Source: Naegleria gruberi (taxonomy: Eukaryota). From it: 64,000 nt of DNA. The stretch's first letter is position 1; the number at the start of each line of letters is the position of its first letter. The notes under the pieces are model-generated. The model did no database searches. It worked only from the letters and a program-made list of their open reading frames with translations, and was not told the DNA's origin. Location of the stretch: assembly GCA_000004985.1 (NCBI GenBank), contig GG738889.1, one strand, 5' to 3'. This document shows, one piece after another, positions 34,801-62,500 of the stretch. A program made the translations under genes and the position numbers.

Positions 34801-37305
34801 CACAATCCAATCGTTTGAGTTTATGTACGTTTGGGATAACAAGTTGATTGCCAGAAATTCTTTTGTAAAATTTTGTGAATCTGCCATTGCTGCCAATTCA
34901 GATGAAACAAACCAATTTTCCTTTATATTGAATGTTTCTTATGGTGCTACTGCTGGTGGTTACTTGATCATTTCTATTATCTATTTGATTGTGACAAGAT
35001 ATCAAATGGCAGAAGTTCCCCATGTTTTGAACATTTTCAAAAATAACCTTTCGAAAAATGTTGTGGGAAAGATCTATCATGAGATGAATGAGAAGAATGA
35101 CGATGATGCCACAACTCACCTTCCAAAAACTTCATTGACCAGACCTAATAATTTATTCTTTCTTTATGGAGTTTTGGTTATAGTATCATTGATACTTGTT
35201 GGTGGTCTTATTCTCATTGAATCGAATGTTAATTGTACTGATTCCATTCAAACTTCACTAAATATCAAACATGGAACATCTGTTCTCAGAGTTATTCACA
35301 GAGCAAGTTTCAGAGTTGGAGAATATTTTGCTTATTTTGGTCTACCAAAAACCCATCTCAACAGTGATTACATGACCACCACAGCAGAGCTTGATGGATT
35401 TTTAACAGATATCAAATCCCTGATGGCTCAATTGTTTACTGATTGGACAGCTTTAGTTTACGGTTCTGGTGGATCTGATGTTAGTGTTGGTAAATATTCA
35501 ACAATTGACAGATTAATTCAAGGAGTATCTTCTTGCAGTGATAATTCCACAATGGATGATACAGAATTAGTGGATTTGTGGAAAAACTGTTATGGATTGG
35601 AAAGAATGATTTCAACCTTTACTACTGACGTTTCCAAACTAAACGAACAGGTATACAATCAAAATTATGTGAAGAATTTTGCAAATTTCTTAAATGGATT
35701 TTTGGATATCTTTGTTCAGACAAATATTCTTTCAGACCACTTGATCAAATTCTTGGATTTATTTGTAGAAAATTCATCTTCACCTAATTTTGAGATTACT
35801 GGTGTATTTGGTGCATTGTTTTGCTTGGTTTGCATCTTTTTGTTCTATTCAATGTTTAATACATTGCAAAATAATCATGCTCAATTGATGTGTTTGAGAA
35901 ATATGTTAAATTATGTTCCAGTTGATGCCTTGGATTCGAATGAAGTGGTTAGAAACTTTATTCTTTACAATGCCATTCCAAGTCCATTCTCCAAGGTCTT
36001 TAAGAGTAAGACCGAGAATCCAACTGATGAAAACTCAAAGGTGAGAAGTGTTTTGAATTCTTCTGTTGAGGGAGCCTTCATTGCAGATGAAAATGGTTTT
36101 GTAGAGCTGATTAATCCAGCAGCTCAAAATATTTTCGGATTCCAACAACAATCTGATGTGGTTGGTACTCCTTTCATTAACATATTCGATACTAAGGATC
36201 ATGAACACATCAAAAAGATTATTCAAACCATGAAGGATAGTATGAAATTGTCAAATCACAAAAATGGAGAAGTTGCTGAGGTGGATTGTGTAAGAAAGAA
36301 TGGAACACAATTCCCAGCTATGGTTAATATGTTTATTGTTATTTTTGATAATTCACCTAACTTGGTTTGTTTCTTGAAAGATGTCACATCAGAAAAGAAG
36401 CATAATGCTATAATTGCAGAAGAGAAGGCAAAATCTGATAGATTATTGAGAAATATTCTACCAGAGTCTGTTGCTGCTCGTTTGAAATCGGGTGATACTT
36501 TTATTGCTGAAAAGTTTGCAGATATTACTTGTTTCTTTAGTGATATGTAAGTATTCAAGTATCAATTTTTATTCGAATGATTTTTAATTATTTTCATAGG
36601 GTTGGATTTACAAATCTATCATCAGGATTGAATCCAAATGAATTGGTAGGCATGTTGAATACAATTGTTAATGGATTTGATGCCTTGACTGATAAATATC
36701 AATTGGAAAAGATTAAGACTATTGGAGATGCCTATTTCGTAAGTAATTTCAATCTCTTCTCATAATTTCTAACACAATATATTTCTATCATAGGCTGTTG
36801 GTGGTATTGGAAATACTCAATCAGATCACCCTGAGAGAACTCTTAGATTTGCAATTTCAACCTTTGATGTGATTAAGGATTTCAATATGAAAAATCCAAA
36901 TACTCAAATTAATATCAGATGTGGAATCAATACTGGTGGTTGTGTTGCTGGTGTAATTGGTACGAAGAAGTTTGCATATGATTTGTGGGGTGTAAGTTGT
37001 CAATTTATTTTACTTTTATTTGAATGATTCAGGATACTATTAATGTTGCTTCAAGAATGGAATCAAATTCAAAACCAGGCCGTATTCAAATATCACGATC
37101 TACTTTTGAAAGAGTTCATGATTTGAAATTTGATTTTGAAGAAAGAAGATTGGATATTAAAGGAAAAGGCCTTTGTGCTTGCTATTTGCTTCACCAAAAA
37201 CATCACGAGAATCCAATAATTGAAAAGAAAGTAGAGGACCCATCCCCTCACATGTCTAGTTCAGTTTCTGCAACTACGATTGCCAGTACAAATGGAACCA
37301 ATTAA
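31832..37305 (+). CDS. Polytopic membrane adenylyl cyclase with PAS domain (class III nucleotidyl cyclase), at least 4 exons, containing scaffold gap
   Basis: The large exon 31832..36546 includes the 32431-32748 N gap. It has two or three TM clusters and a PAS fold (FIADENGFVELINPAAQNIFGFQQQSDVVGTPF…MVNMFIVIFDNSPNLVCFLKDVTSEKKH). The cyclase domain spans exons 36600..36738, 36794..36991 and 37033..37305. Its motifs are FSDM|VGFTNL, KIKTIGDAYF|AVGG and YDLWG|DTINVASRMES. The introns are GTAAGT…CATAG, GTAAGT…CATAG and GTAAGT…TTCAG. The Lys in EKIKTIGD and the Asp in YDLWGDT are the adenine-specifying pair. Confidence 0.8.
32431..32748. other. Assembly gap (318 N) inside the cyclase gene
   Basis: Uninterrupted N run. 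The reading frame shown across it in the ORF track is an artefact of gap length. Confidence 0.9.
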
Positions 37306-41605: not shown

Positions 41606-44600
41606 TTATTGAAGAAGCAAATCCCATTCTTCAACCTTTTTCAATATCACATCAATAGAAGGTCGTTTACCTGGCTCATGACTCCACATCTGGCGAATCA
41701 CTTTTGTCATTTCAAAAATCAATTCATGGTGAATTACTTGTTCCTTATCAAGAAATTCCTCACACCATTTCTTACACTCTTCACAAGTTGAGAATGGAAT
41801 GATTGGCCTCAAATTCTCCTCACAAACACTCTTATGGAAGTGATACGAACTACTAAATGGTGTTGGTTTGGTGATTTTCAACTTTTTGAGAACGTTTGGA
41901 TCTGAGCTATGGTAAGGTTCAATAATTTCGAATAATAATTGCCACATAATGATGGCCAAACTGTAGATATCAATAGAACGGGCGTCCTCTCTCTCAATTT
42001 CACCAGAGAAAAGCTCCGGAGCCATAAATGAGCTGGTTCCAATCTGACTGGTAATTGCTGAAATTGTGTGAGAACAAAAAGCTCGTCCTAATCCAAAATC
42101 ACACAGTTTGGCAGTTCCACTTTTATCGAGAAGGATATTGGCTGGTTTCAAATCTCTATTCCACAAATGAAAGATTATTTTAGGTGAAATTTAGTATTAA
42201 TACATACCTGTGGACAATGAAATTCGGTTCCAAATGATGCAAATAATAAATTCCACTCACAATGTTCCTCAATATTGCCAATTTTTCATTGAGAGTGCAT
42301 TTGGAATAGCCACGTTGCATGGATGCAATCATTGCCTCTAAACTCTTATCCATGCACTCCATGGCAATGAATCTCTTTGTTGGTGTCGATGAAACACCAT
42401 AGAAATTGATAATATTTGGATGCCTTAATTTGCTTAATAAAATTGCTTCCACTTTGAAATCATTTTCTGAAATACTCAAATTATTCAAATCGAATACCTT
42501 GACTGCAATTGTCATTCCATTGAATTTGGTTGCAAAAACAGAACCCATTCCACCTTCTCCGAGTCTCTTGATTGGTTTGTCCATATTGAGTTGTTCTATT
42601 GGAATGATGAATTTATCTGCCTCTTCCACATAGTAAGAACTAGATCCCATACTTGATTCATAATGGTCCAACAATCTTTCATCTAAAACCAGATCAGTTT
42701 CAGTCAGTTTCTTATTCTTTCGTTTTACAGAAATATACGAAATAAAGATAATGAAACAAATGGCAGTAACGATGAGTAAAACAATGGCAGATGAGAGTCC
42801 CAATCCGAGGGCAATCGTGTTGATACTACAATCCTTTCCAAAGTAGGAAGATTGACAAAGACACTCATCCTGTTTTACACATGTTCCATGTCCTGAGCAA
42901 GCACTTGATCCTGATTGACCAAAACAAATAGCAACCCCACAATCTTTTCCTGTATATCCACTATTACAAACACAATTATCTGGTGCTGTACAAGATCCAT
43001 TTCCATGTGAGCAAACTTCCACAGATGTCTTTGGATAATTAAAGCAAATTGGTAATTGACAGTTATTGCCAAAAAAACCTTGATTGCAAGAACATTGATT
43101 AATATCGAAACAATTTCCGTTTCCACTACACACTGATTCTGAAATATTTGCTGGTATTCCAAAACATATTGGAATACACATTGTCAAATCTCTACTCAAA
43201 AGGTAACCCTCTCTACAAAATGGTGTCAGTTGTCTCACGACATTTTGAGTAGAATCTGATAAGTAAATCGATCCAGAACTAGGGGAAATTGTAAATCCTT
43301 GTGGAGATGCCAAATAATCACTCGTTGCCAAAATTTCATTCAAATCCAATTCTTTCACAGTTGAATTTCCAGCAATTGTGTAAACTAGATTAATTCCATT
43401 TCGTCTACTTATTTTCCTAATCATTGCATTCAGTGAATCAATGAAAATAATATCCACAAAATCAGGAGGTACCAATTTCACTATAGTTGGATAATTAAGC
43501 TCTGCCTGTTCAGCAATTCCATCTATGTATCCAGGATTTCCACTGCCTGCAATGGTGGAAATTGATCCATTCACATGAATCATTCTAATTCTATTATTAT
43601 TCGAATCGGCGAATATAATTTCATTATCCAAATTGATGGCAATTCCGGTTGGCTGAGCCAAAAGTGCAGACTTAGCATCATTTGAATCTCCATTAAAACC
43701 ATATCCCTTTCCTGCAATTGTTGAAATTATTCCATTTCTATCAATCTTTCTAATCTTGTTATTTCCAAAATCGGTCACATAAATTTCTCCATTGAGAGGA
43801 GAAACAGAAACCGCATAAGGTTTAATTGAAGCATAGGATGCCAATCCCTTATCACCTATTCCACCAACTATAGTCTTGACGATACCAGTTTTAAAATTGT
43901 AAAGTTTCACCAAATTACTGTAAGTATCAGCAATTGCCAGATATTGAGTTCCACCACTTGGTAACTGGAGATATCTGACGCTTGAAGGATAGCTGAGCTT
44001 GGATTTGATTCCCAATCCCTCCTCAAATTCTCCACCTCCAATCAATGTATCAGCAATTCCAGTAGAAATCGAGACAGTCCTAATCCTATTATTATTAGTA
44101 TCAGCTATAAACATGGTATTCTGTGAAATGGTTATACTTTTAGGGAGATAGAGTTCCATATTTCTAACAAATCCACCGTCACCTCCATTACCAATTTCAC
44201 CTGTGCCTGCATAGGTATCTGTAACACCATTAATAGTGGCATATCGAATTCTGTGATTACCCGTATCGGCAATGCAAATCATTTGGCTATCTACCACGAC
44301 AACATCCTCAGGAAAGCTCAATTGAGTTTCAGTTGATAAAATATTATCACCATTGAATCCTTCATGTCCAGAACCAGCAACTGTCTTTACCATTTGAGAT
44401 GTACTACTGCCCAAGTAAATTGATCTAATTCTATGATTTCTAGAGTCGGCAACCAGTAAAACTTTATCAGCAGAGTCAATATGAATTCCTTTTGGCTATA
44501 GAGTTTGTAAATATTGCAAATTATCAAAAATTTCAAACTTACACTATTAAATGTTGTGTTCAACAGTGTGTTATCTCCATTAAAACCCTTCACTGTTGGT

Positions 44601-46402
44601 ATTCCAGCAAATAGTTCCAATTTTCTAGTTCTAATATTCACTCGCCACAAACAATGTTTTTCACTATCTGAAAAATAAACATAATTACTTATATAGGCAA
44701 TGCCAACTGGAGTGCCAATACCACTGTCCTTTGAAACCAGTGTTTGGGATATTCCAGTACTAACATCTACCATTAAAACTCTATAATTCTTTGTGTCTGA
44801 AACAAATAGAGTGACATTCTTTTCGAGATTGTAATTCACTACTGCAACACAAACTCCTTGTGGACTGTTGAGAACTTCTGATAAACCATCAACCATTTGT
44901 GTATTGGTTGAATTAAAGAAGAATGATCCAGTCATTGGTTGAGATTCTAGAGTATTCAAATTGAATTTCACAAGAAAATTCGAAGCCCAATAGTTAATAT
45001 TATTAACTACGAGTAAGTTTGATTGGTGATCAGTGGTAATTGATATTGGATCAGTAAATATAGGAATCTTACTGTGTAATCCACGTTTCAAATCTAATAG
45101 AGAAGTGCTAATCCTTTCAGATATTCCACTCATAAATGAATATTTCAGTAAACGAGCTGATTGAGAATCAGAAATCAGCAATTCCTCTTCTCCATTCTTA
45201 TTCTTAATAATGATCAAATCTTTTGGTGATCTGAGACCAGTCATTGTTCCTCTGGTTTTTTCAGCAAAGGGAACCCTACTCGAGTAAATTGTTGAAATTA
45301 ATCCTGACCTTCTATCCACCATTCTCATTTCATCTGAAACATCCACAAAAACAATTGCTCCTCCAATGGAAATTGTGACTGATATTGCATTGGTTATTTG
45401 AGCTTCAATGGCTAGCCCTCCATCGCCCAATGATCCTGTGTTTGTTCCCTTAATGACATGTTCGAAAACTCCCATTTCGAGTGAATTCACACTTTCATCC
45501 TGATTGTAAACAGTTGTAAATTTCTTAGATGTCACTGCTTGAGGTCCAGAAAAATAAAAAGTTTCTTCCACAATCGTATTAAGTCCATTTTGATATGTTT
45601 TCAAAGAGGTAACATCAAAAGCAAAAGACATACTATTCCTACAGTCAAAAACAGTACGTGTTCCATTTCTGAATATTCTTTCACCTTTTGATTGAAGTAA
45701 AACTTGCCATTCATCTCTTTCATTAATGATAATTCCTTGAATTGACTCTGAAAAAGTCCTGTACAGAGATACATAACCATTCCTTAACAAGAATACATTG
45801 TAATCTTGTGTGAAATAAACATCAATTTCATCCATATTCGAATACTTGTTAATTGGAACGGAGATTGTTTGGGGATAAATAGAAATTGATGTGGCATTCA
45901 CTTTTTCTGTGGAATCCAAAAATTTACATTGACCATCTCCAGCCAAAGTTGTGATCATTCCATCTGCAGTGTTTAGTCTCTTCAAAAAACAATCCGAATA
46001 GAAATAAATTAAATCAATTGCTCTAGTTGACGACGATTGAAAGGAAACAACCTGAAACTTGGGCCAAACATTGGACCGAACAAAACTGATATCACCTGTT
46101 TCAATGTTCAATTTTGCAAGTTGATATCCTTCACTACCTGTGTTTGATGTGAAATAAATAATGTTTGGATCAACTTTTGAGAACATTGCCCTCGCAGCAA
46201 CGCCAGACAGCTGGTTCTTCTTCTCCAAATATCCAATAACAGGTTTTGATTTATATTGCACAAGTCTCTTCCGAACTAAACTTTCCGTTGTTGGTATTTC
46301 TTGTTGACAAAAAACTGGTGATGTGAAAAACAATGTCACGATTAAAAAACACATCAAAACAGATGCCTCTTTACTGAAAGATAATGATGACATTTTTTTC
46401 AC
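41606..46402 (-). CDS. NHL-repeat receptor protein kinase (signal peptide, about 14 NHL beta-propeller repeats, Cys-rich EGF-like region, TM, Ser/Thr kinase); 3 exons 46402..44543, 44495..42208, 42155..41606
   Basis: The signal peptide is MKKMSSLSF…CFLIVTLFFTSPVFCQQ. There are many NHL-type blades (GNHRIRYATINGV, ADTNNNRIRTV, ADSNNNRIRMI, SDTKNYRVLMVD…). The EGF-like Cys clusters include CSGNGNCFDINQCSCNQGFFGNNCQ. The TM is AIVLLIVTAICFIIFISYISV. The kinase has GEGGMGSVF, AVKVF, HRDLKPANILLD (split IVHR|DLK by a 52-nt GTATGT…AATAG intron), DFGLG and APE. A second 47-nt intron (GTAAGT…CTATAG) joins TTFNS|PKGIHIDSADKV. Together these merge three ORF-track entries into one protein of about 1565 aa. 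The ORF-track M at 44414 is a TTG inside exon 2. Confidence 0.7.
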
Positions 46403-46413
46403 TCTCTTACAAG

Positions 46414-49400
46414 TTATTTATTATTGGAAGGATTGTTAGGGGTATTCAAGTCTGAAAGTTTTCCAATGAAAGATGAACGAAGTCTACCAGCAGTGTTTGT
46501 CAATTTTCCTGCAATGGTAGCACCTCTTTCTCTGAGTGATGGTGTAGATAATCCATTGTTTGGTTGACCTGTGGTTGGTCGTTGGTTTGGTGGTAAAACT
46601 GGAAGTGTTGGGAGATTCTTTTGTGGGATGGTTGGCAATGGTTTTCTATCATGGTCATCAGTAGGAGAACTAGCTCCATTATTATTGGCTAGGAGTTTGT
46701 CTTTACCAGAAAAGCTCAACACTGTTTCAAGTTTGATTTCACCTGTTTGAGCAGGAGAAACTTCATCTTGAGGTTCGGTAAGTTTGTCTTGCAATAGTTT
46801 GGTTTGCAACTCCAAATTTTGCATTTGAAGGTTTTGGTTTTGTTGTTTTAACTCCGCCAACTGCACATACAAATCAGAAATGATATTCTTCAATTCTGCA
46901 TTGACTAATTGTTGGTCATTAATTTCACCTCTGACGATTTGAGCTGATTCACCCTTCTTTTCCATTTTGAGAGCTCTCTCAGTTTGTTGAATTTGTCTCT
47001 TTACAAGTACATTATACTCCTTCTCAACCTTTCCCTTGTCGATTTGAGTCTTTTGTAAATCTTGTTGTAATTGAATGATATGTTCACGAAGAGTTCTATG
47101 AAGAGCATTTGTTTCCTCTTGAGCCTTCTTGAACTTTTTCTTTTCTTCCTTTAGTTTAAAGTCCAAATCGGTAATCTTTCTATCTCTGAGATCACATTCA
47201 GATTGTAATTGTTTGGTCAAGTGCTTTTGTTGGTTCAGCAATTTACGTGTTTCACTCTCCTGAGTAAGGTAAGTGGAGATACTTTGCTCACGGTTTTCCT
47301 GCTCCTTTCTAAAAGATTGGATATATTCATGGAGTTGACTGAATTCAACTCTGAGAGAAAATTCTTCTTCAGCAGCAACACGAAGAGAATTCTTGATAAT
47401 TTCGAATTGCTTTTGCATGCCTCTCAACTCACGATTTTGATGTTCAATACTTTCATCTGTTAAAACTCTATTAACAATTTCTTCATTCTTCTTATCATCA
47501 ACTTCTTGCTTCCTTGTTTCAAAGAAATCTCTGCCAATATCTGTTTGAACACTCATGTCAATACGCATATTTTTGATACGGAGTTCTTCAATTACTCTAG
47601 CACTTAATCTAATCCAGTCTGCAAGTTGGTTAGGAGTTTCTGGATAGATGAAAAGTCTCTTTTCATTACCATTAATGATGGCCAAAACTTCCTTTGGCAT
47701 TGGTTGATTTTCTTCAATTGGTACTTGTGTCTTGATATACTCTGTTGTATCAGACAAAGCCATATGATAGAACAAGTACTTATCAATGGCATTTGTAGAA
47801 TCCTTTACAAAGCTTTGAGGTGGAAGTTTTTGAGTGAGACACAAAATTTCACAAGTATCTAACAAGACACAGTGAATTCTCTTGAAAGTATTTGAACTGT
47901 GAGTGAGTACTTTACAAGGTCCTTCAATAAGAATATTCTTCTTATTGTCATCAACTTTTGGTGTGTTGGTAACAGCTTGGGGTTGTTTAGAAGGAGTCTT
48001 GATAGATGATTGTTGGTTTTGCATATCGGCCAATACTTCTGTAAGGTGAATCTTACTCTTGATGGCTTCATTCAAAGCTTCTGTCTTATCATTGAGTTCA
48101 GAGTGCATATTATTGAAAAGTCTTGTCAAACTATAATGTTCAATAAGAGTCTTTGTGAAGGATCTTTGTGATTCTGCTATTAAATCTCCCAAATTTTGGA
48201 ATTTTTTGATAATCAAGAGAGTCTTCTTATCAGCAAACATGGCAAAATAACCTTGTAACATATCTGCCCATTGTTTGATATCCTTGAATTGGCTTCTCAA
48301 GAGCTTGGAAATTACATAAACCATCTCTGGTTTGATTTCAATACGCAAAGAGTTCTCTGAATGTCCAAGGGAAGGATCCATAGCTTGGAACCAAATACCT
48401 CTCTTACTCAATGGCTTGGTATAATCATTGATAAGTCCAATCATCCAATCAACTGGTGCCGAGGTGAGTGGAACAACTTCCAAATTGTCAAATGTTGAAG
48501 TCTTTGGAGCACTGTTAATATCATCCAATGACTTGAAAGGAACACCAGTCTTAATCAAACAGTGAACATTTGTACCAGTACCATAGAGCTTGAGTTCATA
48601 TTCATGAGATCTATTACTAAAGCTTTGAACAGGTTGTTTTGATATTCTGTCCAAATGTTCAATACGGTAGAGACTATCAAACATTGGTAGGGTAGCACCC
48701 TCCATGATACTTCTTGTTGGCAAGTGAGTGACCCCCAATGTCTTGATTTCCACACCAACAGCATTTGGTCCTTGACCTTTTCCGATGACATAAACTTCAA
48801 CCTCCTCAAGAGAAATGTCGAACAACATTGGATAGAAAGTTTGGTGAGTGGTGGCCAAGAATTCTTGAACTGTCTTCTTGTCCTCTTCCTCCTCCGTAAG
48901 TTCTTGTTCCTCTGATTGTTCTTTAACAACTTGTGGTTTCTTCTTTGTATCTTTGATCTTTTTAGCAACAGTCTTGATGACTGGAATTAATTCAGTCTTG
49001 ATGGTTGGAATGATTTCTTCCTTAATGACTGGAATAATTTCAGCAGTACTTTCTTTGGTTTTTCTCTCAATTTTGGCAGGTTCTATGGTACGAATTGTTG
49101 GTGTGGAAATGCCTGTTGCTATGGAAATAGGTTCTGGCTTTTTCTCTGACGAATCAACTTCCACAGAAACAAATGAGTCAATTTCTTTCATTGTCAATGT
49201 TAGAGTTGGTGTTTCCTTTGGAGTATCGAAGGCCGATTCTGAAGTAATAATCTCAAATGAGTCATCACCTTCTTCGGTATTCATTTCTTCATCAGTCAAT
49301 GGTTCTTCATCCTCTTCATCCTTTTCTGAAGGTGAAGTAGCAGCCGATTTCGACTCTGCTTCCTGTCCAGCTACTTGTGGTAAAGAAGATTCTTGTTGTT

Positions 49401-52400
49401 GCTGTGTTTGTTCTTCTTGGTTTTCCTCTAAAACTTCAACTGAGTCTTTTGGTGAAAGAGACTCTTCAACCTTTGGTGAAGTAATTCCTGTTTCGCTCTC
49501 CAAAAAGTCAGTAGGCAATTGTGAAACCAATTCCTCTTCTTCCTCTTGAGCCTTCTTCTTTTCAGGCAAGTACTTTTCACGAATCTTACTGTATGTTCTC
49601 TTCACTGTTCTATTCATAATTTCCATAGGTGATACATCAAATGCATTTTCTCTGGAATTTAAGAAATGAAGAACATGGTATGCAGTGTCAGTATTTAAAC
49701 CAATGTGAAGTCCGTTTGCTTTCAAAATAAGTCTTGGATTTCTCAAAAAATTTGAATTTCTGTGAGGTTCCATCTGTGGTTGGTCACTAGGAGTTGCTGG
49801 TGACTTTTTAGTATCAGCATTCAAATCCATTGGATGTTCATATCTGAAAACTATCATGTGACCAGGAGATTTGGTTTTATCATACATTGGGAATACATAT
49901 GGAGACTTTTGTGAAATGCTCGAATGCATATGGCTTACCATGATCGAAGAAGGATTTTCACCATTTTGTGGAGAAGTTATTTCAAAGTGAGCAATCTTAC
50001 TCTTCACCGTTAAAAAGTTGCTAACCTTTGTAGTATTGTTGGTTTCTACTAAAACCTCAGCTCCACTCAAAACCATAGTCAATAATTTTGCATCCAAAGA
50101 AGGGTCATACTGTGAGGAGAAGAATGCCTCCATTGAGGTGGCAGATGAAGCAGTAATTGAAACTTCAAGCTTGGCAATCTTGGACATGAACATGAGAGGG
50201 ATGAGACGAATATCTTCCTTTGGAGCTTCAATAATAGGTTGAGGTTGATTTGGTTTTTTGAAAAGATCAATATTATGGTCATGGAATGATTTGGTACTTT
50301 GAATTAGGAAGGACTTGATCATTGGAGGATCATCAACAAATGTACGTATGAATTCCAACAATAAAATCACTTGAGATTGGTTCATGTGGAAATTCAAATT
50401 TTCAATAAAGGTAAGAAGTACAATTTTTGGTAACTTGGCATGGTAATCTGACAAGGTTTCATCATTGATACCCAAATCAAAAGTCAAGGAAAGAGGTTCC
50501 ATAATTCTCTGTGGTGGTGAGTGAATGGAAGGCATGATTTGAATCAAAAAGTCGGATATTTTGACCTTGAACTTGTTTGGCAAAACTTCCCATAGAGAAG
50601 AATGTAACGAACTGTAATCTGAACCACTTGATGGGAATGTATCAATTGATTTTGGAGCAAAGAGTGAATCCTTATCCTTCTTTCCCCATTCCGATTGTTT
50701 TCTAATTCTAGGATCACTAGTGATGATCAATTCTCTATTATCAATACAAACAATTTCATTCACATCGGTCATTAGATCTGGTGAGTAATTTGAAGGAATA
50801 AAAATTTTTGGACTTCTAATTTCCACAAGGAAGGAGAAGCTCTTCTCATCTCCTCCACTTTCTTCATCTGAATTGTAATCAGAATTTGATGAATTGATAG
50901 AGTTACTGGATGGTGAAACTTTCAACTTTTCTGCACTTTTAGTTGTGGATGCCATAGAGCTGAGTGAACCAGTTGGATTAAGAGGTTTACCAAGTTGTAT
51001 GATACTATCCACAGGAGGTTTGACGGACATGTCTGGTAAACATTCTAGAGAAAATTCCAATAATCTAATAAGTCTACGAACATCGAGCATGATATTGATA
51101 GGATTCACTCTACATTCTAAAATGAATTCCATTCCTTCACCCTTAACAAACTTTAACCTGACCATTTCTTTCCCTTCCTCAAAGAATTTTCTTTTAATGA
51201 CAGAGTTTGGTCGGTATACTCTATCAGTTTTAGTATAGTCAGGATAGTATCTGTGTGTTGATAAAAATTCAGGCCAGACGTCCAAATTGACTGTATAACT
51301 GTGTGATCCTGTAACTGTAGGACTCACTATTTTTGTAGTTTCTGCATGATGACTCACAAAATCATCCTCTTCAAACTCTTCTTTAAATATTTGAGGTTGA
51401 ATAATATAATTTTCATCTTTCAATTCATTATCTGTAGTATTGTGATTTCCAATGAGTTCCAAATCCAAGAAAGAAGCTGCTGTTTCTGATAAATTTCCTT
51501 GTCCCTTGAAACTTGTAGTAATTTCCTTAAATTGGATGAAAGGAATTCCGAGTTGAATATTCTTATCCTCAGGTGTATCCTCTGGCATGACCAAGCCTAA
51601 CTGGAATCCCAACATTTCAAAATAGTACCCAAGTACACGTCTATTTTCTCTTCCAACAACTTGTTTAGGTTGATTATTCTCATCACGACTATACAAAAAT
51701 GTCATTGAAAACTCGTTTAAATTTACAACTATACACTTTCTGACAGTGTCTTGTGGAGTTGAGGATTTCTTAATCATATCATCTGTAATAATTTCCATAT
51801 CATTTAAATCTCCATCCATTTCTGCCAATTCCTCTTCAAGTTTGGCTTCATCATCCGAATCCTCCTCATCACCATTATTATCAACAAAGAATTTAGAAAT
51901 TGCTTTAGATTGTCTAGCTGTTGTTGTTGTGTTGGTCATTGATGTTTTGCTAGATTTTGATGAAAGACTAGATTGACTGCCTGATCTTTTTGTTCTCTTT
52001 ACATATGTTGTTAGTGGATCTTTTGGTTGAATTAAATCCTGTCTTGCTGATGCTGATTTAAAAGCTAACAAGACTCTGATAAGTGCTTTAATATCGTCCT
52101 GTCTTAGTGTTATTGCTATTTTAGGAAGAATAATTTCAGCATTGATACTCAGTAGTGATGATTGTTTACCCACTGTTACTGCTCGCTTTTTCATTGTTAT
52201 AAAGATATTACAAGTTATATCATTTAAAAGCTTGATAGGGTCTGAGTTTGGTAAGAAACTATTTGCTGATGGTGTACTCTTTATACCTGTGCTAGAAAAG
52301 ACTGAACTAGGTATGAGAGAGATGGATATTGATTCAATAGTACCCATACGATGCACCCAAACAAAAGGATTTTTATCAACCTTTGGGATGGCTTGTTTTA

Positions 52401-52977
52401 AATCTGGTACAGGTTTAAATCTATAATCTGTTGTTTGAAGGGTAAATCCCTTGACTAGAATTTGCAATACATGAGGTGTATATGGTCCAATTTGTGTTGA
52501 AGGTATTGGCCCGAGAGTTTTAATATTAATTTCAACTCTATTTACCACAATCTTGAGACCATCAATAATTCTATCCACAAATCCATACTTGCTGGTACCT
52601 GTTTTTGATGAAGAAGAACCTTCATCACCCTGAGATCCTCTGTTCTTTTCCAGAAAATCCTTCAGTGGTGTCTTTTTAACAAAAGGTTTTGTTGGTTCCT
52701 CCAAGTTGATAACCAACTTATCGAGAGTGATGATGAGAGGATCATTTGTTAAACGTGTAAGACCTGGTAAACGTATGGAGAGTTGATTGACGTGAGCATC
52801 CATTACTTGAAGAAAATCAATAGGTAAAACCTCTTGAATAACTTGTTCATTGACGAATAAATTATTCAGAGACCCTGATCCCTTCATAAACGATAGAGAC
52901 AAGGCATCCTTTCCCCAGTTTTTAATAAAGACGGAAAGATATTTTCCCAACACACTAGAAATCAATCTATCAGCCAT
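46414..52977 (-). CDS. Chorein-N bridge-like lipid-transfer protein, BLTP3/SHIP164 (UHRF1BP1)-like, with acidic region, PH-like domain and long C-terminal coiled coil
   Basis: The 2187-aa single exon starts at a real ATG. The N-terminus MADRLISSVLGKYLSVFIKNWGKDALSLSFMKGSGSLNNLFVNEQVIQEVLPIDFLQVMDAHVNQLSIRLP…LDKLVINLEEP aligns closely with the SHIP164/UHRF1BP1 chorein-N domain (…LSTLKGEGELKNLELDEEVLQNML…ASIRIPW…LDKV…EEP). Near residue 1700 there is a PH-like fold (ILIEGPCKVL…KRIHCVLLDTCEILCL…KRLFIYPETPNQLADWIRLSARV). The last ~450 aa are heptad-rich and end in a Pro-rich tail. Confidence 0.6.
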   Translation of the reverse strand: MADRLISSVLGKYLSVFIKNWGKDALSLSFMKGSGSLNNLFVNEQVIQEVLPIDFLQVMDAHVNQLSIRLPGLTRLTNDPLIITLDKLVINLEEPTKPFVKKTPLKDFLEKNRGSQGDEGSSSSKTGTSKYGFVDRIIDGLKIVVNRVEINIKTLGPIPSTQIGPYTPHVLQILVKGFTLQTTDYRFKPVPDLKQAIPKVDKNPFVWVHRMGTIESISISLIPSSVFSSTGIKSTPSANSFLPNSDPIKLLNDITCNIFITMKKRAVTVGKQSSLLSINAEIILPKIAITLRQDDIKALIRVLLAFKSASARQDLIQPKDPLTTYVKRTKRSGSQSSLSSKSSKTSMTNTTTTARQSKAISKFFVDNNGDEEDSDDEAKLEEELAEMDGDLNDMEIITDDMIKKSSTPQDTVRKCIVVNLNEFSMTFLYSRDENNQPKQVVGRENRRVLGYYFEMLGFQLGLVMPEDTPEDKNIQLGIPFIQFKEITTSFKGQGNLSETAASFLDLELIGNHNTTDNELKDENYIIQPQIFKEEFEEDDFVSHHAETTKIVSPTVTGSHSYTVNLDVWPEFLSTHRYYPDYTKTDRVYRPNSVIKRKFFEEGKEMVRLKFVKGEGMEFILECRVNPINIMLDVRRLIRLLEFSLECLPDMSVKPPVDSIIQLGKPLNPTGSLSSMASTTKSAEKLKVSPSSNSINSSNSDYNSDEESGGDEKSFSFLVEIRSPKIFIPSNYSPDLMTDVNEIVCIDNRELIITSDPRIRKQSEWGKKDKDSLFAPKSIDTFPSSGSDYSSLHSSLWEVLPNKFKVKISDFLIQIMPSIHSPPQRIMEPLSLTFDLGINDETLSDYHAKLPKIVLLTFIENLNFHMNQSQVILLLEFIRTFVDDPPMIKSFLIQSTKSFHDHNIDLFKKPNQPQPIIEAPKEDIRLIPLMFMSKIAKLEVSITASSATSMEAFFSSQYDPSLDAKLLTMVLSGAEVLVETNNTTKVSNFLTVKSKIAHFEITSPQNGENPSSIMVSHMHSSISQKSPYVFPMYDKTKSPGHMIVFRYEHPMDLNADTKKSPATPSDQPQMEPHRNSNFLRNPRLILKANGLHIGLNTDTAYHVLHFLNSRENAFDVSPMEIMNRTVKRTYSKIREKYLPEKKKAQEEEEELVSQLPTDFLESETGITSPKVEESLSPKDSVEVLEENQEEQTQQQQESSLPQVAGQEAESKSAATSPSEKDEEDEEPLTDEEMNTEEGDDSFEIITSESAFDTPKETPTLTLTMKEIDSFVSVEVDSSEKKPEPISIATGISTPTIRTIEPAKIERKTKESTAEIIPVIKEEIIPTIKTELIPVIKTVAKKIKDTKKKPQVVKEQSEEQELTEEEEDKKTVQEFLATTHQTFYPMLFDISLEEVEVYVIGKGQGPNAVGVEIKTLGVTHLPTRSIMEGATLPMFDSLYRIEHLDRISKQPVQSFSNRSHEYELKLYGTGTNVHCLIKTGVPFKSLDDINSAPKTSTFDNLEVVPLTSAPVDWMIGLINDYTKPLSKRGIWFQAMDPSLGHSENSLRIEIKPEMVYVISKLLRSQFKDIKQWADMLQGYFAMFADKKTLLIIKKFQNLGDLIAESQRSFTKTLIEHYSLTRLFNNMHSELNDKTEALNEAIKSKIHLTEVLADMQNQQSSIKTPSKQPQAVTNTPKVDDNKKNILIEGPCKVLTHSSNTFKRIHCVLLDTCEILCLTQKLPPQSFVKDSTNAIDKYLFYHMALSDTTEYIKTQVPIEENQPMPKEVLAIINGNEKRLFIYPETPNQLADWIRLSARVIEELRIKNMRIDMSVQTDIGRDFFETRKQEVDDKKNEEIVNRVLTDESIEHQNRELRGMQKQFEIIKNSLRVAAEEEFSLRVEFSQLHEYIQSFRKEQENREQSISTYLTQESETRKLLNQQKHLTKQLQSECDLRDRKITDLDFKLKEEKKKFKKAQEETNALHRTLREHIIQLQQDLQKTQIDKGKVEKEYNVLVKRQIQQTERALKMEKKGESAQIVRGEINDQQLVNAELKNIISDLYVQLAELKQQNQNLQMQNLELQTKLLQDKLTEPQDEVSPAQTGEIKLETVLSFSGKDKLLANNNGASSPTDDHDRKPLPTIPQKNLPTLPVLPPNQRPTTGQPNNGLSTPSLRERGATIAGKLTNTAGRLRSSFIGKLSDLNTPNNPSNNK

Positions 52978-59522: not shown

Positions 59523-62500
59523 TTATTCTCTTTTAAATGTAATGGTGCCCATTGTTCTATCCAACATTTCAATTCTTTGGTCTTCATAGTCAGCACTACA
59601 CACAGATCTCAATTCATCTCTATGATCCAAAGTTGGCACAATACTCACCATTCTAGTAACATTTTGAACTTTGTATCTTCTAGAAATTATAATTAAGGCA
59701 ATAATGGAACTAACACAGACAAACAAGACGGCAACATAACCACCAATGACAGAACCAACAATAATACCAACCAAGTTGATATACGTAACTGGAATACTAC
59801 AATCCTCTCCAAGATAACCCAAATCGCATTTACAAACACCACTCAAACACTTGCCGTTCAATGAACAGAAGTTTGGACATACCAAAACTGCTGTGCATGA
59901 ACCATTATTGCTGCATGAATCTTGAGCAACGGCTGTAGCAGAAGCCATAGCATATTCAACCAAACCAGTTGACAAGACATCGAACATACATGATTCGTAG
60001 AATGATGCTGTCAATCCCAAACTATTACAAGCCTTTTCAGCCAAAGCTTGTAGAGTAGCATTTTCCGAAGAGGCCTTCATAATAGGCTTAAAGTCAAGAA
60101 CATTAAGGTCTTCATATTGAGATCCAACAGTATAAGTAAAGAAGGATTCATTCTTTGAAATTCTCCAACTTTCACCAAAAACTTGGTGAATTTGTTCAGC
60201 AGTAGGTGAAGGAAGAACAGTACCATCTCTCAATGTAAATTCATTGTCCTTATTTCCATCGAGTGTACCATACAAACCTCCAAGTTCAGTACCAGTAAAG
60301 TTAACATCCTTTGATGGAGCAAATGAAACAGCCAACCATCCAAGTCCATCATTTCTCAATTTGATTTGACCCTTGAAATCACCACTATACTTGACAGTAA
60401 TGGATTTGTAATAAAACTTCAAACCATTAACCATGTAATAACTTGATGTATCATCTTCTTGGGTAATTGTGGCACCTCCATTCAAAACAAGAATTGGGGT
60501 ATCTGGTTCCTTATACACAAGTTGTGATTCTGTGATATTGGCAACTTGGTTAGTGTCTGGATCGACTTGACCCTTAATTTGTTCTACTAACTTTTGAAGA
60601 TCCTTTGGAATTTCAAACTTGGTATCAGCTTCAACAGGTTGAACATTGACTTTTGTTTCATTGAGATAAACTTGAACATCATTGACAAGAACCTTAACAC
60701 CAGTCTTACCATCAGACAAGATTGAAACCTTATCCGATCCGCTCATGAATGAAATACCCTTCATACATGATGTCTTTGAATCTGCTGTACATTTCATCAA
60801 TCTACCTTGTAATCCCAATTCATTAGACTTGTACAAGTAGAATTCACCAATTGAATTGAATGTATATTCTGCAGCATCAACAGTTCTAAGGTGAATATCA
60901 CCAAAGGCCAAAACCTTATTGACCAAATCAAATATGTGAACAAGACTACAATCTGATCCTCCAAAACCTGGGAAACAAGCACAAGTATTTGGACCAACAC
61001 AAGTACCTCTTCCTCCACACCAATTTCTATGGACACAATGGAATGATGAACAGGTTTCAGTGTACCAACCCCATCTACAGACACATTCATTTGGTCCAAC
61101 ACATTTACCTCTCTTAGCACCACCACAACTTGATCTATTAGCACACAAATCAGTATCAATGACAGCAACACAATTAGATCCAGGAGGAACATAGGTAGCC
61201 TCTTCAATATAGACAGTTGCTTCCTTCTTGACTGGAAGAGTGACAATATTATTCTTACAATCATAAGTAGTTAGACCATCTGTGAAATTGGATGGTGAGA
61301 GATTTCTAGTTGGTGAACCATCAGTAAATTCAATCTTAACTTTCAATGGTCCCCATTTGACAAATCCAATGGAAACACTCAAAGTTGTGGAACCTTGCCA
61401 ATCGAGTCTTATCTTTTCAGGTGTACCAACAACACCAAGCCAATCAATGGAATATCTATAGATACCATAATCCATGTAAAGTGCTCTGTACCACCATTCA
61501 CCCCAATATTGCAATCTACCATTCAACTTTTCACTATATCCATTAGTACTATTCACTCTAGCTCTATCAATACCATTGGTAATGGCTGGAGTTGTAATTT
61601 CAAATCTCTTGAAATTCACAGATTCGTCACAAATGAAAGCATTCCATTCCTTAACATAGGCACACAAAATTGGATCGACCATGATCATAGTACTTGGAAT
61701 AATTCTAGCACCAGCTCTTCTGATTTTAGAAGGTACAGTAATATTTCTAGATAAAGTGCCGTCAGTATCAATAATAACTTCATGTCTATAAACATCAGAC
61801 AATGATGATTCCTTAGAAGCCAAACCAGCAAGTAAATACATAACGTTAGCATTGTGGAAATACATTCTATTGGTAACATAATCACCTTGATTCATTGAAG
61901 CCCAATCATCATTTCTAAGATCAATGGATGATAGCTTTCTTTCACAATTATCAACAAAATCAAAGAATTCCAAATCTTGAAGAAGTAAAGTATTACCATC
62001 ACGATGATATAAAACACCGATAAATGGATCATTTCTACTGTATGAAGGAAGTGATCTATAATATGGTGAGGATGGATTCTTGTAATCAGTTCCACATCTA
62101 TAACATTGACCATCATTACAATTATTTGGATTACCCTTATTTTGTGTAAAACCAATAAAGATGGCACCACTAACAACAATTGGACTCATAATGATATTAA
62201 GGACAGTATAACTAACTGGATTGTCTGCAAAGATACTTCCCTTCAAATTGAGTTTTCCTTGAACGTGGGAGTATTGACCATTTTGTCTATTCTTCCAAAT
62301 GTTCATATTCTCAAATACTGGTTCAGACCAAGGATTCTTATCAGTACCACAATTAGTTGAATCATACATTTCCATCTTTGGATTTGTGCATGTGTAAAAG
62401 TTTGGATACAACATCATACCATGTTGATTATTACTGTGGGCAGTGTTGTTAACAAATTGTCCCCAGTACCATCTATTAGGTCTAATATATGGAGTTTGAG

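What the first reader, a model, noticed from the sequence alone, without database searches (positions are those of the whole stretch)
46414..52977. BLTP3/SHIP164-like chorein-N protein extended by a PH-like domain and about 450 aa of coiled coil
The first ~100 aa align convincingly with the chorein-N lipid-transfer domain of UHRF1BP1/SHIP164 rather than with VPS13 or ATG2. At 2187 aa the protein is about 700 aa longer than metazoan BLTP3. It has a large acidic, Ser-rich disordered insert. It also has a PH-like module (…KRIHCVLLDTCEILCL…KRLFIYPETPNQLADWIRLSARV) and a kinesin-stalk-like coiled coil ending in a Pro-rich tail. The gene is a single 6.5-kb exon. The C-terminal add-ons suggest a different tethering mechanism for the lipid bridge.
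Basis: partly seen in the sequence, partly recalled or inferred. Interest (0 to 1): 0.5.

Follow-up and report, generated by a model that had tools for sequence, protein, structure and literature searches.

The report
Protist BLTP3 lipid bridge with PH
This is a real Naegleria gruberi gene for a BLTP3/SHIP164-type lipid-transfer "bridge" protein that has a true PH domain and a long coiled coil at its tail; many other protist relatives also have the PH domain, which the animal-centred literature does not describe.

Summary
The ORF at 46414-52977 (minus strand, 2187 aa) is real. It is identical to the N. gruberi hypothetical protein NAEGRDRAFT_80886.

**Family.** Residues 4-369 are homologous to BLTP3/SHIP164 (Pfam PF24917, E 6e-15; hhalign 99.5%, E 1e-22). 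No VPS13 or ATG2 model is matched.

**Standard BLTP3 features.** The acidic disordered insert (aa 1140-1372), the 177-aa rod segment after it and the helix that follows all match the layout published for human BLTP3A.

**Coiled coil.** It spans about 250 aa (1817-2066), not 450.

**Main correction.** The PH plus coiled-coil tail is not specific to Naegleria. A helix-PH-coiled-coil tail also occurs in chorein-N/BLTP3-type proteins of jakobids (coiled coil scored only crudely), Cyanophora, an amoebozoan and many metagenomic protists. Animal, Dictyostelium, Balamuthia and Chara members lack it.

**Specific to Heterolobosea.** These are the lengthened coiled coil, a conserved [V/I/T]QT motif in front of it and tandem PxxP motifs in the tail.

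The lipid-transfer and tethering functions are inferred, not shown. This is a new variant of a known kind, of moderate interest.

The parts
46414..52977 (-). Complete intronless CDS, 2187 aa plus stop. It is N. gruberi NAEGRDRAFT_80886.
   Evidence: ORF list and translation. 100% identity and coverage to the NCBI protein. Collinear orthologues in N. lovaniensis, N. fowleri, Willaertia magna and an ENA sequence.
51871..52968 (-). aa 4-369: chorein-N plus the first RBG repeats. This is the region with demonstrable BLTP3 homology.
   Evidence: Pfam PF24917, E 5.9e-15. hhalign of the Naegleria-clade alignment against a 19-sequence metazoan-type BLTP3 alignment: probability 99.5%, E 1e-22, aa 4-369 against BLTP3B 3-314. 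Homology to the jakobid-type group runs on to aa 669.
49561..51870 (-). aa 370-1139: conserved body, presumed to be the continuation of the RBG rod. It is interrupted by polar loops at about 330-415 and 660-722.
   Evidence: 48-57% invariant columns among 5 orthologues, strand-biased propensity, no transmembrane segment (max KD19 1.35). The RBG fold here is inferred, not shown.
48862..49560 (-). aa 1140-1372: acidic intrinsically disordered loop.
   Evidence: E 21%, net charge -33, 3% invariant columns. It sits at the same position as the 'large disordered outpocketing' of human BLTP3A, aa 885-1188 (PMC12583604).
49237..49272 (-). aa 1236-1247, EGDDSFEIITSE: the only conserved island in the disordered loop. 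It is a LIR-like F-x-x-I after an acidic run.
   Evidence: Conserved in 5 Naegleria/Willaertia orthologues (F changed to L in Willaertia); absent in P0008 and P0009. Human BLTP3A has a functional LIR in the equivalent loop. Function here is speculative.
48331..48861 (-). aa 1373-1549: conserved last rod segment after the loop.
   Evidence: 51% invariant columns for aa 1373-1585, the block that contains this segment. Found in P0008 and P0009 by local hmmsearch. It is 177 aa, against about 176 aa (1189-1364) in human BLTP3A. The AF2 model here was poor (pLDDT 27-36).
48016..48330 (-). aa 1550-1654: two long helices between the rod and the PH domain. They sit where the BLTP3 'C-terminal helix' would be.
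   Evidence: AF2 helices 1550-1579 and 1584-1654, pLDDT 50-67. Conserved in P0008 and P0009 (E 1.9e-16 and 3.1e-15). The hhalign match to the BLTP3B C-terminal helix is not significant (E 0.31).
47554..47934 (-). aa 1682-1808: PH domain, 7 strands plus a C-terminal helix with Trp1788.
47536..47559 (-). aa 1807-1814, DMSVQTDI: conserved [V/I/T]QT[D/G] motif between the PH domain and the coiled coil. Candidate LC8/DYNLL-binding site.
   Evidence: Q1811, T1812, D1813 and I1814 are invariant in 5 orthologues. P0008 has IATQTDF and P0009 has VGTQTGA at the corresponding place. Vertebrate BLTP3B has KATQTQT before its C-terminal helix and binds DYNLL1/2. Binding here is inferred only.
46780..47529 (-). 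aa 1817-2066: proline-free, helix-rich coiled-coil region of about 250 aa.
   Evidence: AF2 helices 1817-1834, 1844-1977, 1981-2007 and 2014-2066, pLDDT up to 89. No Pro, with E+K+R+Q at 44%. Crude heptad score is positive for 1838-1909 and 1922-1991. 44% invariant columns for aa 1807-2066.
46417..46779 (-). aa 2067-2187: Pro/Ser/Thr/Asn-rich disordered tail with a short conserved terminal helix (about 2150-2171).
   Evidence: Composition. AF2 helix 2150-2171, low confidence. 13% invariant columns.
46600..46644 (-). aa 2112-2126, KPLPTIPQKNLPTLP: tandem K-x-x-P-x-x-P motifs of the class I SH3-ligand type.
   Evidence: Both motifs are conserved in the five Naegleria/Willaertia orthologues. P0009 has KPLPPIP plus RSLPPPP, and P0008 a single KALPPPP. 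The binding partner is unknown.

Best explanation
The gene encodes the Naegleria gruberi member of the BLTP3/SHIP164 family of bridge-like (repeating beta-groove) lipid-transfer proteins, in a protist-type architecture.

**Architecture.** The N-terminal chorein-N domain and following groove repeats (aa 1 to about 1140, resuming at 1373-1549 after a disordered acidic loop) would form the hydrophobic rod along which lipids slide between two closely apposed membranes. The C-terminal end carries a targeting and tethering module:
- two long helices;
- a divergent PH domain (aa 1682-1808);
- a [V/I/T]QT motif;
- about 250 aa of coiled coil;
- a disordered tail with tandem PxxP motifs.

**Most likely mode of action.** The coiled coil dimerises the protein or pairs it with a coiled-coil partner on vesicles or the cytoskeleton, as proposed for the short C-terminal helix of animal SHIP164. 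The PH domain docks the same end onto a membrane lipid or protein. The linear motifs recruit adaptors: an LC8-type light chain, SH3 proteins and possibly ATG8 through the loop motif.

**Shown here:** gene integrity; BLTP3 homology of aa 4-369; disorder-type composition and conservation of the loop; the PH fold; the helical, proline-free nature of the coiled-coil region; conservation of the whole layout in seven Heterolobosea-type orthologues; and the same helix-PH-coiled-coil order in distant protists.

**Inferred:** the RBG fold of the middle of the protein, lipid transfer itself, coiled-coil oligomerisation, PH ligands and every motif-partner assignment.
For: - ORF and identity to NAEGRDRAFT_80886.
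- Pfam BLTP3A_B is the only family hit, at E 5.9e-15.
- hhalign to metazoan BLTP3: 99.5%, E 1e-22, over 311 columns. hhalign to the protist groups: 99.4-99.9%.
- The rod / disordered loop / 177-aa rod / helix layout parallels human BLTP3A.
- No transmembrane segment and no VAB or ATG_C hits.
- Long confident helices with no proline in 1817-2066.
- The C-terminal body, helix, PH and coiled coil are all detected in P0008 and P0009.
- PH passes Pfam's threshold in the Andalucia, Cyanophora, MMETSP and JGI homologues.
- Crude heptad scoring finds coiled-coil-like stretches after the PH domain in all 26 PH-bearing relatives scored, though a few only just exceed the 28-residue minimum.
- A C-terminal coiled coil is a published hallmark of SHIP164.
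Against: - Beyond about aa 370 (aa 669 against the jakobid group) no significant similarity to any BLTP3 was found.
- The RBG fold of the middle and C-terminal body was not demonstrated. The only model covering 1375-1560 had pLDDT 27-36.
- Pfam PH does not hit the N. gruberi sequence at all and is below threshold in its orthologues.
- The PH model used an alignment that included canonical PH domains, which favours that fold.
- The canonical K-Xn-(K/R)-X-R lipid-binding signature is incomplete (K1689...K1699-R1700-I1701), so lipid binding is uncertain.
- My heptad score is poorly calibrated: its threshold lies near the 99th percentile of shuffles.
- No functional data exist for any protist member.
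Confidence: 0.72

Rival explanations
1. The PH-bearing proteins, including this one, are an ancient paralogous subfamily ('BLTP3-PH') distinct from the lineage that gave animal BLTP3A/B. This gene would then be a BLTP3-like relative rather than the orthologue of SHIP164, and a separate PH-less BLTP3 might exist or have been lost in Naegleria.
For: - PH-bearing and PH-less forms both occur within Amoebozoa (Sappinia against Balamuthia, Dictyostelium and Protostelium) and within Discoba (Naegleria and the jakobids against Entosiphon).
- Gefionella has two paralogues.
- Some PH-bearers score higher against VPS13_N than against BLTP3A_B, although below the VPS13_N cut-off.
Against: - In a crude NJ tree of the N-terminal 260 aa, the PH-bearers do not form one clade separate from PH-less protist forms.
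- All groups link to metazoan BLTP3 at 99.4-99.9%.
- No species was shown to hold both forms.
- The tree has no support values and no outgroup.
Confidence: 0.25
2. One reading: the PH domain and coiled coil are secondary additions, gained in Heterolobosea or several times independently, on an originally metazoan-like, unspecialised BLTP3.
For: - The Naegleria-clade PH is very divergent from the canonical PH domains of the other protist homologues: hhalign probability is only 56% and identity is 8-15%.
- The coiled coil is much longer than elsewhere, about 250 aa against 30-110 aa.
- Domain shuffling of PH domains is common (general knowledge).
Against: - The same order, helix-PH-coiled coil, at the same position after the rod recurs in Discoba, Glaucophyta, Amoebozoa and several unnamed lineages.
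- hhalign finds the collinear pre-PH helix plus PH in the jakobid group (1627-1804 against 1096-1283, E 0.016) and in the glaucophyte group (E 0.007).
- A C-terminal coiled coil is universal in the family.
Confidence: 0.2
3. It is an artefact: two adjacent genes (a chorein-N protein and a PH/coiled-coil protein) read through or fused by mis-assembly or mis-annotation.
For: Nothing specific. Only the modular layout with long disordered linkers.
Against: - There is one open frame of 6561 nt with no stop in a 35% GC genome.
- The same continuous architecture is found in N. lovaniensis, N. fowleri, Willaertia, an ENA sequence and two Logan assemblies.
- It also occurs as single ORFs or transcripts in unrelated protists.
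Confidence: 0.02
4. It is a shortened VPS13 or ATG2 relative (VPS13 also ends in helices plus a PH domain) rather than a BLTP3.
For: - The best solved-structure sequence hit is the VPS13 N-terminus, 6cbc, at E 0.003.
- The C-terminal 'helices then PH' order resembles ATG_C-PH of VPS13 (Levine 2022).
Against: - There are no Pfam VPS13_N, VAB, ATG_C or ATG2 hits at E<=1, whereas BLTP3A_B scores 54 bits.
- hhalign to BLTP3 gives 99.5% over 311 columns.
- The rod, at about 1100 structured residues, is BLTP3-sized.
- The PH domains of relatives resemble generic lipid-binding PH domains such as MyoX, cytohesin and TAPP1.
Confidence: 0.03

Closest known systems
Human BLTP3B/SHIP164 (UHRF1BP1L) and BLTP3A (UHRF1BP1)
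   Same: - N-terminal chorein-N plus RBG1-3 homology (hhalign 99.5%).
- No transmembrane segment and no VAB or ATG_C.
[quoted passage not shown]
- Short linear motifs in the loop or C-terminal region: a LIR in BLTP3A and an LC8 motif in BLTP3B, with possible counterparts here.
   Different: - The animal proteins have no PH domain and only a helix of about 45 aa at the C-terminus. Reviews describe BLTP3 as lacking specialised C-terminal domains (PMC12066543).
- The Naegleria protein has a PH domain, about 250 aa of coiled coil and a PxxP tail.
- No sequence similarity is detectable beyond about aa 370.
Uncharacterised protist chorein-N/PH proteins: Andalucia godoyi ANDGO_06393, Stygiella incarcerata, Cyanophora paradoxa tig00021537_g22289, Sappinia pedata, an MMETSP transcript and metagenomic proteins such as P0006, P0079 and P0086
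   Same: - BLTP3-type N-terminus. Five of the seven non-heterolobosean N-termini scanned pass the Pfam BLTP3A_B cut-off, and none passes VPS13_N.
- The same C-terminal order, helix-PH-coiled coil.
- The jakobid-type group (Stygiella plus one metagenomic protein) is homologous to Naegleria over 522 columns.
   Different: - Their PH domains are canonical. They pass Pfam's threshold and carry the W-K/R-x-R signature.
- Their coiled coils are mostly shorter, 30-110 aa.
- They lack the heptapeptide PxxP tandem.
- Andalucia has an extra C2 hit.
VPS13 C-terminal module (ATG_C amphipathic helices followed by a PH domain)
   Same: A bridge-like lipid transporter whose distal end carries helices and then a PH domain used for partner or membrane recognition (Levine 2022; PfVPS13L1).
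   Different: - There are no VAB repeats.
- The helices here are long and coiled-coil-like rather than an ATG_C bundle.
- The PH domain is followed by a coiled coil rather than ending the protein.
- The N-terminus is BLTP3-type.
Plant SHIP164 homologue ('amino-terminal region of chorein', AT3G20720) and Chara braunii CBR_g39891
   Same: - Family membership through the N-terminal repeats only.
- Levine reports animal-plant homology confined to RBG1-3. This is the same pattern seen here between Naegleria and animals.
   Different: - No PH domain was found in the Chara C-terminus.
- Levine describes no accessory folded domain in SHIP164 homologues.

Membership tests
BLTP3/SHIP164 (Pfam PF24917 BLTP3A_B) | N-terminal chorein-N sequence that scores above the family's curated threshold and better than VPS13 or ATG2 models | tested here: met
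   54.1 bits against a cut-off of 24, E 5.9e-15, aa 7-154. No other family appears at E<=1. Orthologue P0002 scores 63 bits.
BLTP3/SHIP164 | Homology extending through RBG1-RBG3, the only region conserved between animal and plant members according to Levine 2022 | tested here: met
   hhalign probability 99.5%, E 1e-22, aa 4-369 against BLTP3B 3-314. Nothing significant beyond that, as in the published animal-plant comparison.
BLTP3/SHIP164 | Rod of about six RBG repeats with a continuous hydrophobic groove | tested here: inconclusive
   The only model covering part of the rod (aa 1375-1560) had pLDDT 27-36. aa 1-1140 was not modelled. Rod size (about 1100 structured residues) and strand-biased propensity are compatible.
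BLTP3/SHIP164 | No N-terminal transmembrane helix and no VAB or ATG_C accessory modules | tested here: met
   The maximum 19-residue Kyte-Doolittle mean is 1.35. Pfam finds no such domains.
BLTP3/SHIP164 | Large disordered loop projecting from the C-terminal part of the rod | tested here: met
   aa 1140-1372: net charge -33, 3% invariant columns, followed by a conserved 177-aa segment. Compare human BLTP3A 885-1188 followed by about 176 aa.
BLTP3/SHIP164 | C-terminus ends in a coiled coil rather than an amphipathic capping helix | tested here: met
   Long helices at 1550-1654 and 1817-2066. Coiled-coil C-termini are also present in the PH-less relatives. The significance of the match to the BLTP3B helix itself is nil (E 0.31).
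BLTP3/SHIP164 | Binds and transfers glycerophospholipids | not testable with these tools
   Needs purified protein and liposome assays.
PH domain (Pfam PF00169 / PH superfold) | Seven-stranded antiparallel beta-sandwich closed by a C-terminal alpha-helix | tested here: met
PH domain (Pfam PF00169) | Sequence scores above Pfam's gathering threshold (25.1 bits) | tested here: not met
   There is no hit for N. gruberi. Orthologues score 15-18.6 bits (E 0.0027-0.033) and P0008 scores 21.6 bits. Profile-profile comparison to canonical PH domains of relatives gives E 1.1e-4, probability 56%.
PH domain | Invariant Trp in the C-terminal helix | tested here: met
   W1788 (W117 of the segment) is the only invariant column across all 22 aligned PH segments.
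PH domain, phosphoinositide-binding subclass | Basic K-Xn-(K/R)-X-R signature in the beta1-beta2 region | tested here: not met
   N. gruberi has K1689...F-K1699-R1700-I1701-H. The third basic position is I or V in the Naegleria/Willaertia orthologues, T in P0009 and V in P0008 (W-R-D-V), whereas relatives have W-K/R-x-R. This was read from alignments, not from a structural superposition.
Coiled coil | Long uninterrupted helices with heptad hydrophobic pattern and no proline | tested here: met
   The helix 1844-1977 has block-mean pLDDT of about 50-89 (above 70 for about 1875-1975). There is no Pro in 1800-2062. The heptad score is positive for 1838-1909 and 1922-1991. The heptad score is crude.
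Coiled coil | Forms a dimer or higher oligomer | not testable with these tools
   No multimer prediction or biophysics was available.
VPS13 (Pfam PF12624 VPS13_N and accessory domains) | N-terminal region above the VPS13_N threshold (80 bits), plus VAB, ATG_C and a C-terminal PH | tested here: not met
   No VPS13_N hit at E<=1 and no VAB or ATG_C. There is only a weak phmmer hit to the VPS13 N-terminus 6cbc, E 0.003.

The most novel reading that the evidence does not exclude
The ancestral eukaryotic BLTP3 carried a C-terminal helix-PH-coiled-coil targeting module, reminiscent of the ATG_C-PH end of VPS13. The 'unspecialised' C-terminus of animal, plant and most amoebozoan BLTP3 would then be a secondary reduction that kept only the coiled-coil helix. 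In Heterolobosea the module was further elaborated (250-aa coiled coil, LC8-type [V/T]QT motif, SH3-ligand tandem, LIR-like loop motif). That elaboration would make a lipid bridge that is physically coupled to motor, cytoskeletal and ATG8 machinery.
Probability: 0.3. Interest if true: 0.55.

Novelty: new variant of a known kind. Interest (0 to 1): 0.4.

Why it matters
BLTP3/SHIP164 is the least understood of the bridge-like lipid transporters. It is not known how its C-terminal end engages a membrane or vesicle. Reviews describe it as lacking specialised terminal domains (PMC12066543), and Levine (2022) found folded accessory domains only in VPS13.

A recognisable PH domain sits exactly at that end in Naegleria. 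It is also present in jakobids, a glaucophyte, an amoebozoan and many uncultured protists. This points to a concrete and probably old way of docking the distal end of the bridge. It also offers tractable fragments (PH, coiled coil, TQT and PxxP peptides) with which to test how the family is targeted.

N. fowleri, the brain-eating amoeba, has the same protein at 68% identity. The gene itself is already in public databases as a hypothetical protein. The advance is therefore one of annotation and evolutionary interpretation, not a new kind of system.

Tried and rejected
1. The search for homologous proteins with the N-terminal alignment A3 returned only 2 hits, and with the 12-sequence alignment A8 returned none. 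The word prefilter is too weak for this family, so the census rests on the exhaustive HMMER search.
2. The first AF2 run, on aa 1375-2187 with 5 orthologues, gave pLDDT 47. It was usable only for the helices and as a weak check of the PH strand pattern.
3. PDB sequence-profile searches found nothing significant, either with the Naegleria PH alignment (MyoX PH, E 0.15) or with the N-terminal profile (no hits).
4. The AFDB Foldseek library was unavailable, so I could not look for annotated structural neighbours of the PH model or of the rod.
5. I considered a FFAT motif for the conserved DDSFEIITS island and rejected it, because the residues do not fit E-F-F-D-A-x-E. A LIR-like reading fits better but is weakened by F-to-L in Willaertia and by absence in P0008 and P0009.
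6. 'Kinesin-stalk-like': no kinesin or other named coiled-coil family is matched. The best is a myosin-7 coiled coil at E 0.34.
7. The literature searches found no paper describing Naegleria SHIP164 or a PH domain in BLTP3. The library covers only open-access papers and bioRxiv preprints, so absence there is not proof.
8. The NJ tree has no support values and no outgroup. I use it only to say that PH-bearers are not one tight clade.

Full report
**What is in the window**

The interval 46414-52977 holds one uninterrupted minus-strand ORF of 2187 codons starting with ATG. The window is about 35% G+C, so an open frame of 6.5 kb cannot arise by chance. The translation is 100% identical over its full length to the NCBI protein 'hypothetical protein NAEGRDRAFT_80886 [Naegleria gruberi]'. 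The window is therefore Naegleria gruberi nuclear DNA, and the public gene model is also intronless.

Collinear orthologues exist in N. lovaniensis (69% identity), N. fowleri (68%), an ENA sequence (66%) and Willaertia magna (57%). Two more divergent full-length orthologues turned up in the exhaustive search: P0008 (1989 aa) and P0009 (2330 aa), both from Logan assemblies.

**N-terminus and family**

Pfam reports a single family for the whole protein. This is BLTP3A_B (PF24917) at E 5.9e-15 and 54 bits (cut-off 24), over aa 7-154. No VPS13_N or ATG2 model is reported even at E<=1.

I compared the seven-sequence Naegleria-clade alignment with a 19-sequence alignment of metazoan-type BLTP3 by profile-profile search. 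The result was probability 99.5% and E 1e-22 over 311 columns, aa 4-369 against BLTP3B 3-314. Beyond that point only insignificant matches appear. This is the pattern Levine (2022) reported for animal against plant SHIP164, where homology is confined to RBG1-3 (PMC7613979). The best solved-structure sequence match is the VPS13 N-terminus at E 0.003, which is much weaker.

**Body, loop and last rod segment**

- Residues 370-1139 and 1373-1549 are well conserved, with about half the columns invariant among five orthologues. They are hydrophobic (35-39%), lean towards strand in a crude propensity score, and contain no transmembrane segment.
- Between them lies aa 1140-1372, with 21% Glu, net charge -33 and only 3% invariant columns. 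It is a disordered acidic loop.
- Human BLTP3A is described as six RBG motifs with 'a large disordered outpocketing' (aa 885-1188), then the last part of the rod and a C-terminal helix at 1394-1440 (PMC12583604). The Naegleria layout is collinear with this. The post-loop rod segment is 177 aa, against about 176 aa in human.
- The 'large acidic insert' is therefore a standard BLTP3 feature.
- I could not show that the body folds as a beta-groove. The only model that covered part of it had pLDDT 27-36.

**The PH-like segment**

Sequence evidence alone is marginal. Pfam PH gives no hit for N. gruberi, E 0.0027-0.033 for three orthologues and E 3e-4 for P0008. A PDB profile search was not significant.

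The decisive evidence came from relatives and from structure:
- An exhaustive profile search with the N-terminal 1145 aa found 256 proteins at E<=0.001.
- Many of the long hits end in a canonical PH domain that passes Pfam's threshold. Examples are Andalucia godoyi (66 bits), a JGI protein annotated 'VPS13-like, N-terminal/PH domain' (44 bits), Cyanophora paradoxa (35 bits) and an MMETSP-related protein (33 bits).
- An alignment of ten such domains hits solved PH domains at E down to 2.7e-23.
- That alignment matches the Naegleria-clade segment end to end at E 1.1e-4, hhalign probability 56%.
- AF2 on aa 1672-1809 with a 22-sequence alignment gave pLDDT 91.1 and pTM 0.84, with seven strands and a C-terminal helix.

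One caveat applies: the alignment contained canonical PH domains, which favours that fold. However, the orthologue-only model showed the same strand-and-helix pattern at low confidence.

The hallmark Trp (W1788) is invariant. The basic beta1-beta2 signature is incomplete in the Naegleria clade (K...K-R-I/V instead of K...K/R-x-R) although it is intact in the relatives. Phosphoinositide binding is therefore uncertain for this copy.

**Coiled coil and tail**

After the PH domain, the AF2 model has helices at 1817-1834, 1844-1977, 1981-2007 and 2014-2066, with pLDDT up to 89. The span contains no proline. That is about 250 aa, not 450. Adding the two pre-PH helices (1550-1654) brings the helical total to about 330-350 aa.

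A C-terminal coiled coil is the published peculiarity of SHIP164 among RBG proteins. It is also present in the PH-less relatives I inspected. What is unusual here is its length.

The tail (2067-2187) is 12% Pro. It carries a tandem KPLPxIP / KxLPxLP, with both copies conserved in the five Naegleria/Willaertia orthologues, KPLPPIP plus RSLPPPP in P0009, and a single KALPPPP in P0008.

**Distribution of the architecture**

- An iterated local PH profile marks 29 of the 80 proteins of >=900 aa in my set as PH-bearing. In almost all of them a helix precedes the PH domain and a coiled-coil-like stretch follows it.
- Named sources are Jakobida (Andalucia, Stygiella), Glaucophyta (Cyanophora) and Amoebozoa (Sappinia), plus MMETSP and metagenomic sequences.
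- The N-termini of most of these pass the BLTP3A_B threshold, and none passes the VPS13_N threshold.
- Every group links to metazoan BLTP3 or to Naegleria at 99.4-99.9%. The jakobid-type group is homologous to Naegleria over 522 columns.
- Members from Balamuthia, Dictyostelium, Protostelium, Chara, Entosiphon and Gefionella have no PH domain in their C-terminal 380 aa. The iterated PH profile also found none in Salpingoeca or in the metazoan-type members.
- In a crude NJ tree the PH-bearers are not one tight clade.

The PH-plus-coiled-coil end is thus a widespread form of the family and possibly the ancestral one. It is not a Naegleria add-on. I found no paper that describes it. One review states that BLTP3 has no specialised C-terminal domains (PMC12066543), and Levine found folded accessory domains only in VPS13.

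**Candidate linear motifs (inference only)**

1. [V/I/T]QT[D/G] lies immediately between the PH domain and the coiled coil in all seven orthologues (SVQTDI, IATQTDF, VGTQTGA). Fish BLTP3B has KATQTQT just before its C-terminal helix, and human SHIP164 binds DYNLL1/2 through a motif near its C-terminus (PMC9067936). An LC8 site next to a coiled coil is the classical arrangement for LC8-assisted dimerisation; this last point rests on my own knowledge.
2. DDSFEIITS is the only conserved island in the disordered loop and looks like a LIR. Human BLTP3A uses a LIR in the equivalent loop. The motif is L-E-I-I in Willaertia and is absent from P0008 and P0009, so confidence is low.
3. The PxxP tandem suggests SH3 partners.

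**Verdict**

The family assignment and the PH call are confirmed. The interpretation needs reframing: this is the heterolobosean version of a PH-bearing protist form of BLTP3, not a metazoan-type BLTP3 with private extensions.

Lipid transfer, dimerisation and partner binding are inferred from the family and the anatomy. I rate it a new variant of a known kind, with interest 0.4.

Noticed in passing
window 47536-47559 (-), aa 1807-1814; also P0008 aa 1673 and P0009 aa 1852: A conserved [V/I/T]QT[D/G] motif lies exactly between the PH domain and the coiled coil in all seven Heterolobosea-type orthologues. It resembles the LC8/DYNLL 'TQT' motif. Fish BLTP3B has KATQTQT just before its C-terminal helix, and human SHIP164 is a published DYNLL1/2 binder.
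   Followed up: partly
window 49237-49272 (-), aa 1236-1247: EGDDSFEIITSE is the only conserved island in the otherwise unconserved acidic loop. It is LIR-like (F-x-x-I after acidic residues) and echoes the functional LIR in the equivalent loop of human BLTP3A. It is L-E-I-I in Willaertia and missing in P0008 and P0009.
   Followed up: partly
window 46600-46644 (-), aa 2112-2126: Tandem KPLPTIP / KNLPTLP, of the class I SH3-ligand type K-x-x-P-x-x-P. Both copies are conserved in the five Naegleria/Willaertia orthologues. P0009 has KPLPPIP plus RSLPPPP, and P0008 a single KALPPPP.
   Followed up: partly
window 47554-47934 (-), PH beta1-beta2 region, aa 1689-1702: The Naegleria-clade PH domain has lost the third basic residue of the canonical phosphoinositide signature (F/W-K-R/K-I/V-H). 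The PH domains of the jakobid, glaucophyte and other relatives keep W-K/R-x-R. This suggests a change of ligand in Heterolobosea.
   Followed up: partly
window 42180-46402 (-): Immediately downstream on the same strand are two overlapping ORFs of 671 and 744 aa with NHL/teneurin-NHL repeats, EGF-like domains and the N-terminal half of a protein kinase domain. This is probably one receptor-kinase-like gene split by an intron or frameshift. The first possible start lies only 12 nt after the BLTP3 stop codon.
   Followed up: partly
window 59523-63890 (-): A 1455-aa ORF with G8, CEMIP beta-helix, EGF-like and VWD domains. It is a CEMIP/TMEM2-like extracellular protein in an amoeboflagellate.
   Followed up: no
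window 31832-36550 (+): A 1572-aa ORF with TmcB-type TPR repeats and a C-terminal PAS domain.
   Followed up: no
P0038 (Andalucia godoyi ANDGO_06393), aa about 256-287: The jakobid homologue has a weak C2-domain hit (E 3e-4) right after the chorein-N region, in addition to a strong C-terminal PH domain. The source annotates it as 'BAG-associated GRAM protein 1', which looks like a misannotation.
   Followed up: no
L001 (ENA ERZ27280272 contig k141_1506708) 2940-8711: A metagenomic protist contig encodes a 1923-aa single-ORF homologue (P0006) with the same chorein-N ... PH ... coiled-coil order. Its neighbours include Tctex-1 and a fatty-acid hydroxylase. The organism is unknown.
   Followed up: partly
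C-terminal coiled coils of Balamuthia P0040 and JGI protein P0079: There are weak Pfam hits to the Rab11-FIP3-like domain (E 3.3e-5 and 1.3e-3), which is the coiled coil of a dynein adaptor and Rab-binding protein. This is compatible with motor or Rab coupling of the family's C-terminus, but both hits are below threshold.
   Followed up: no
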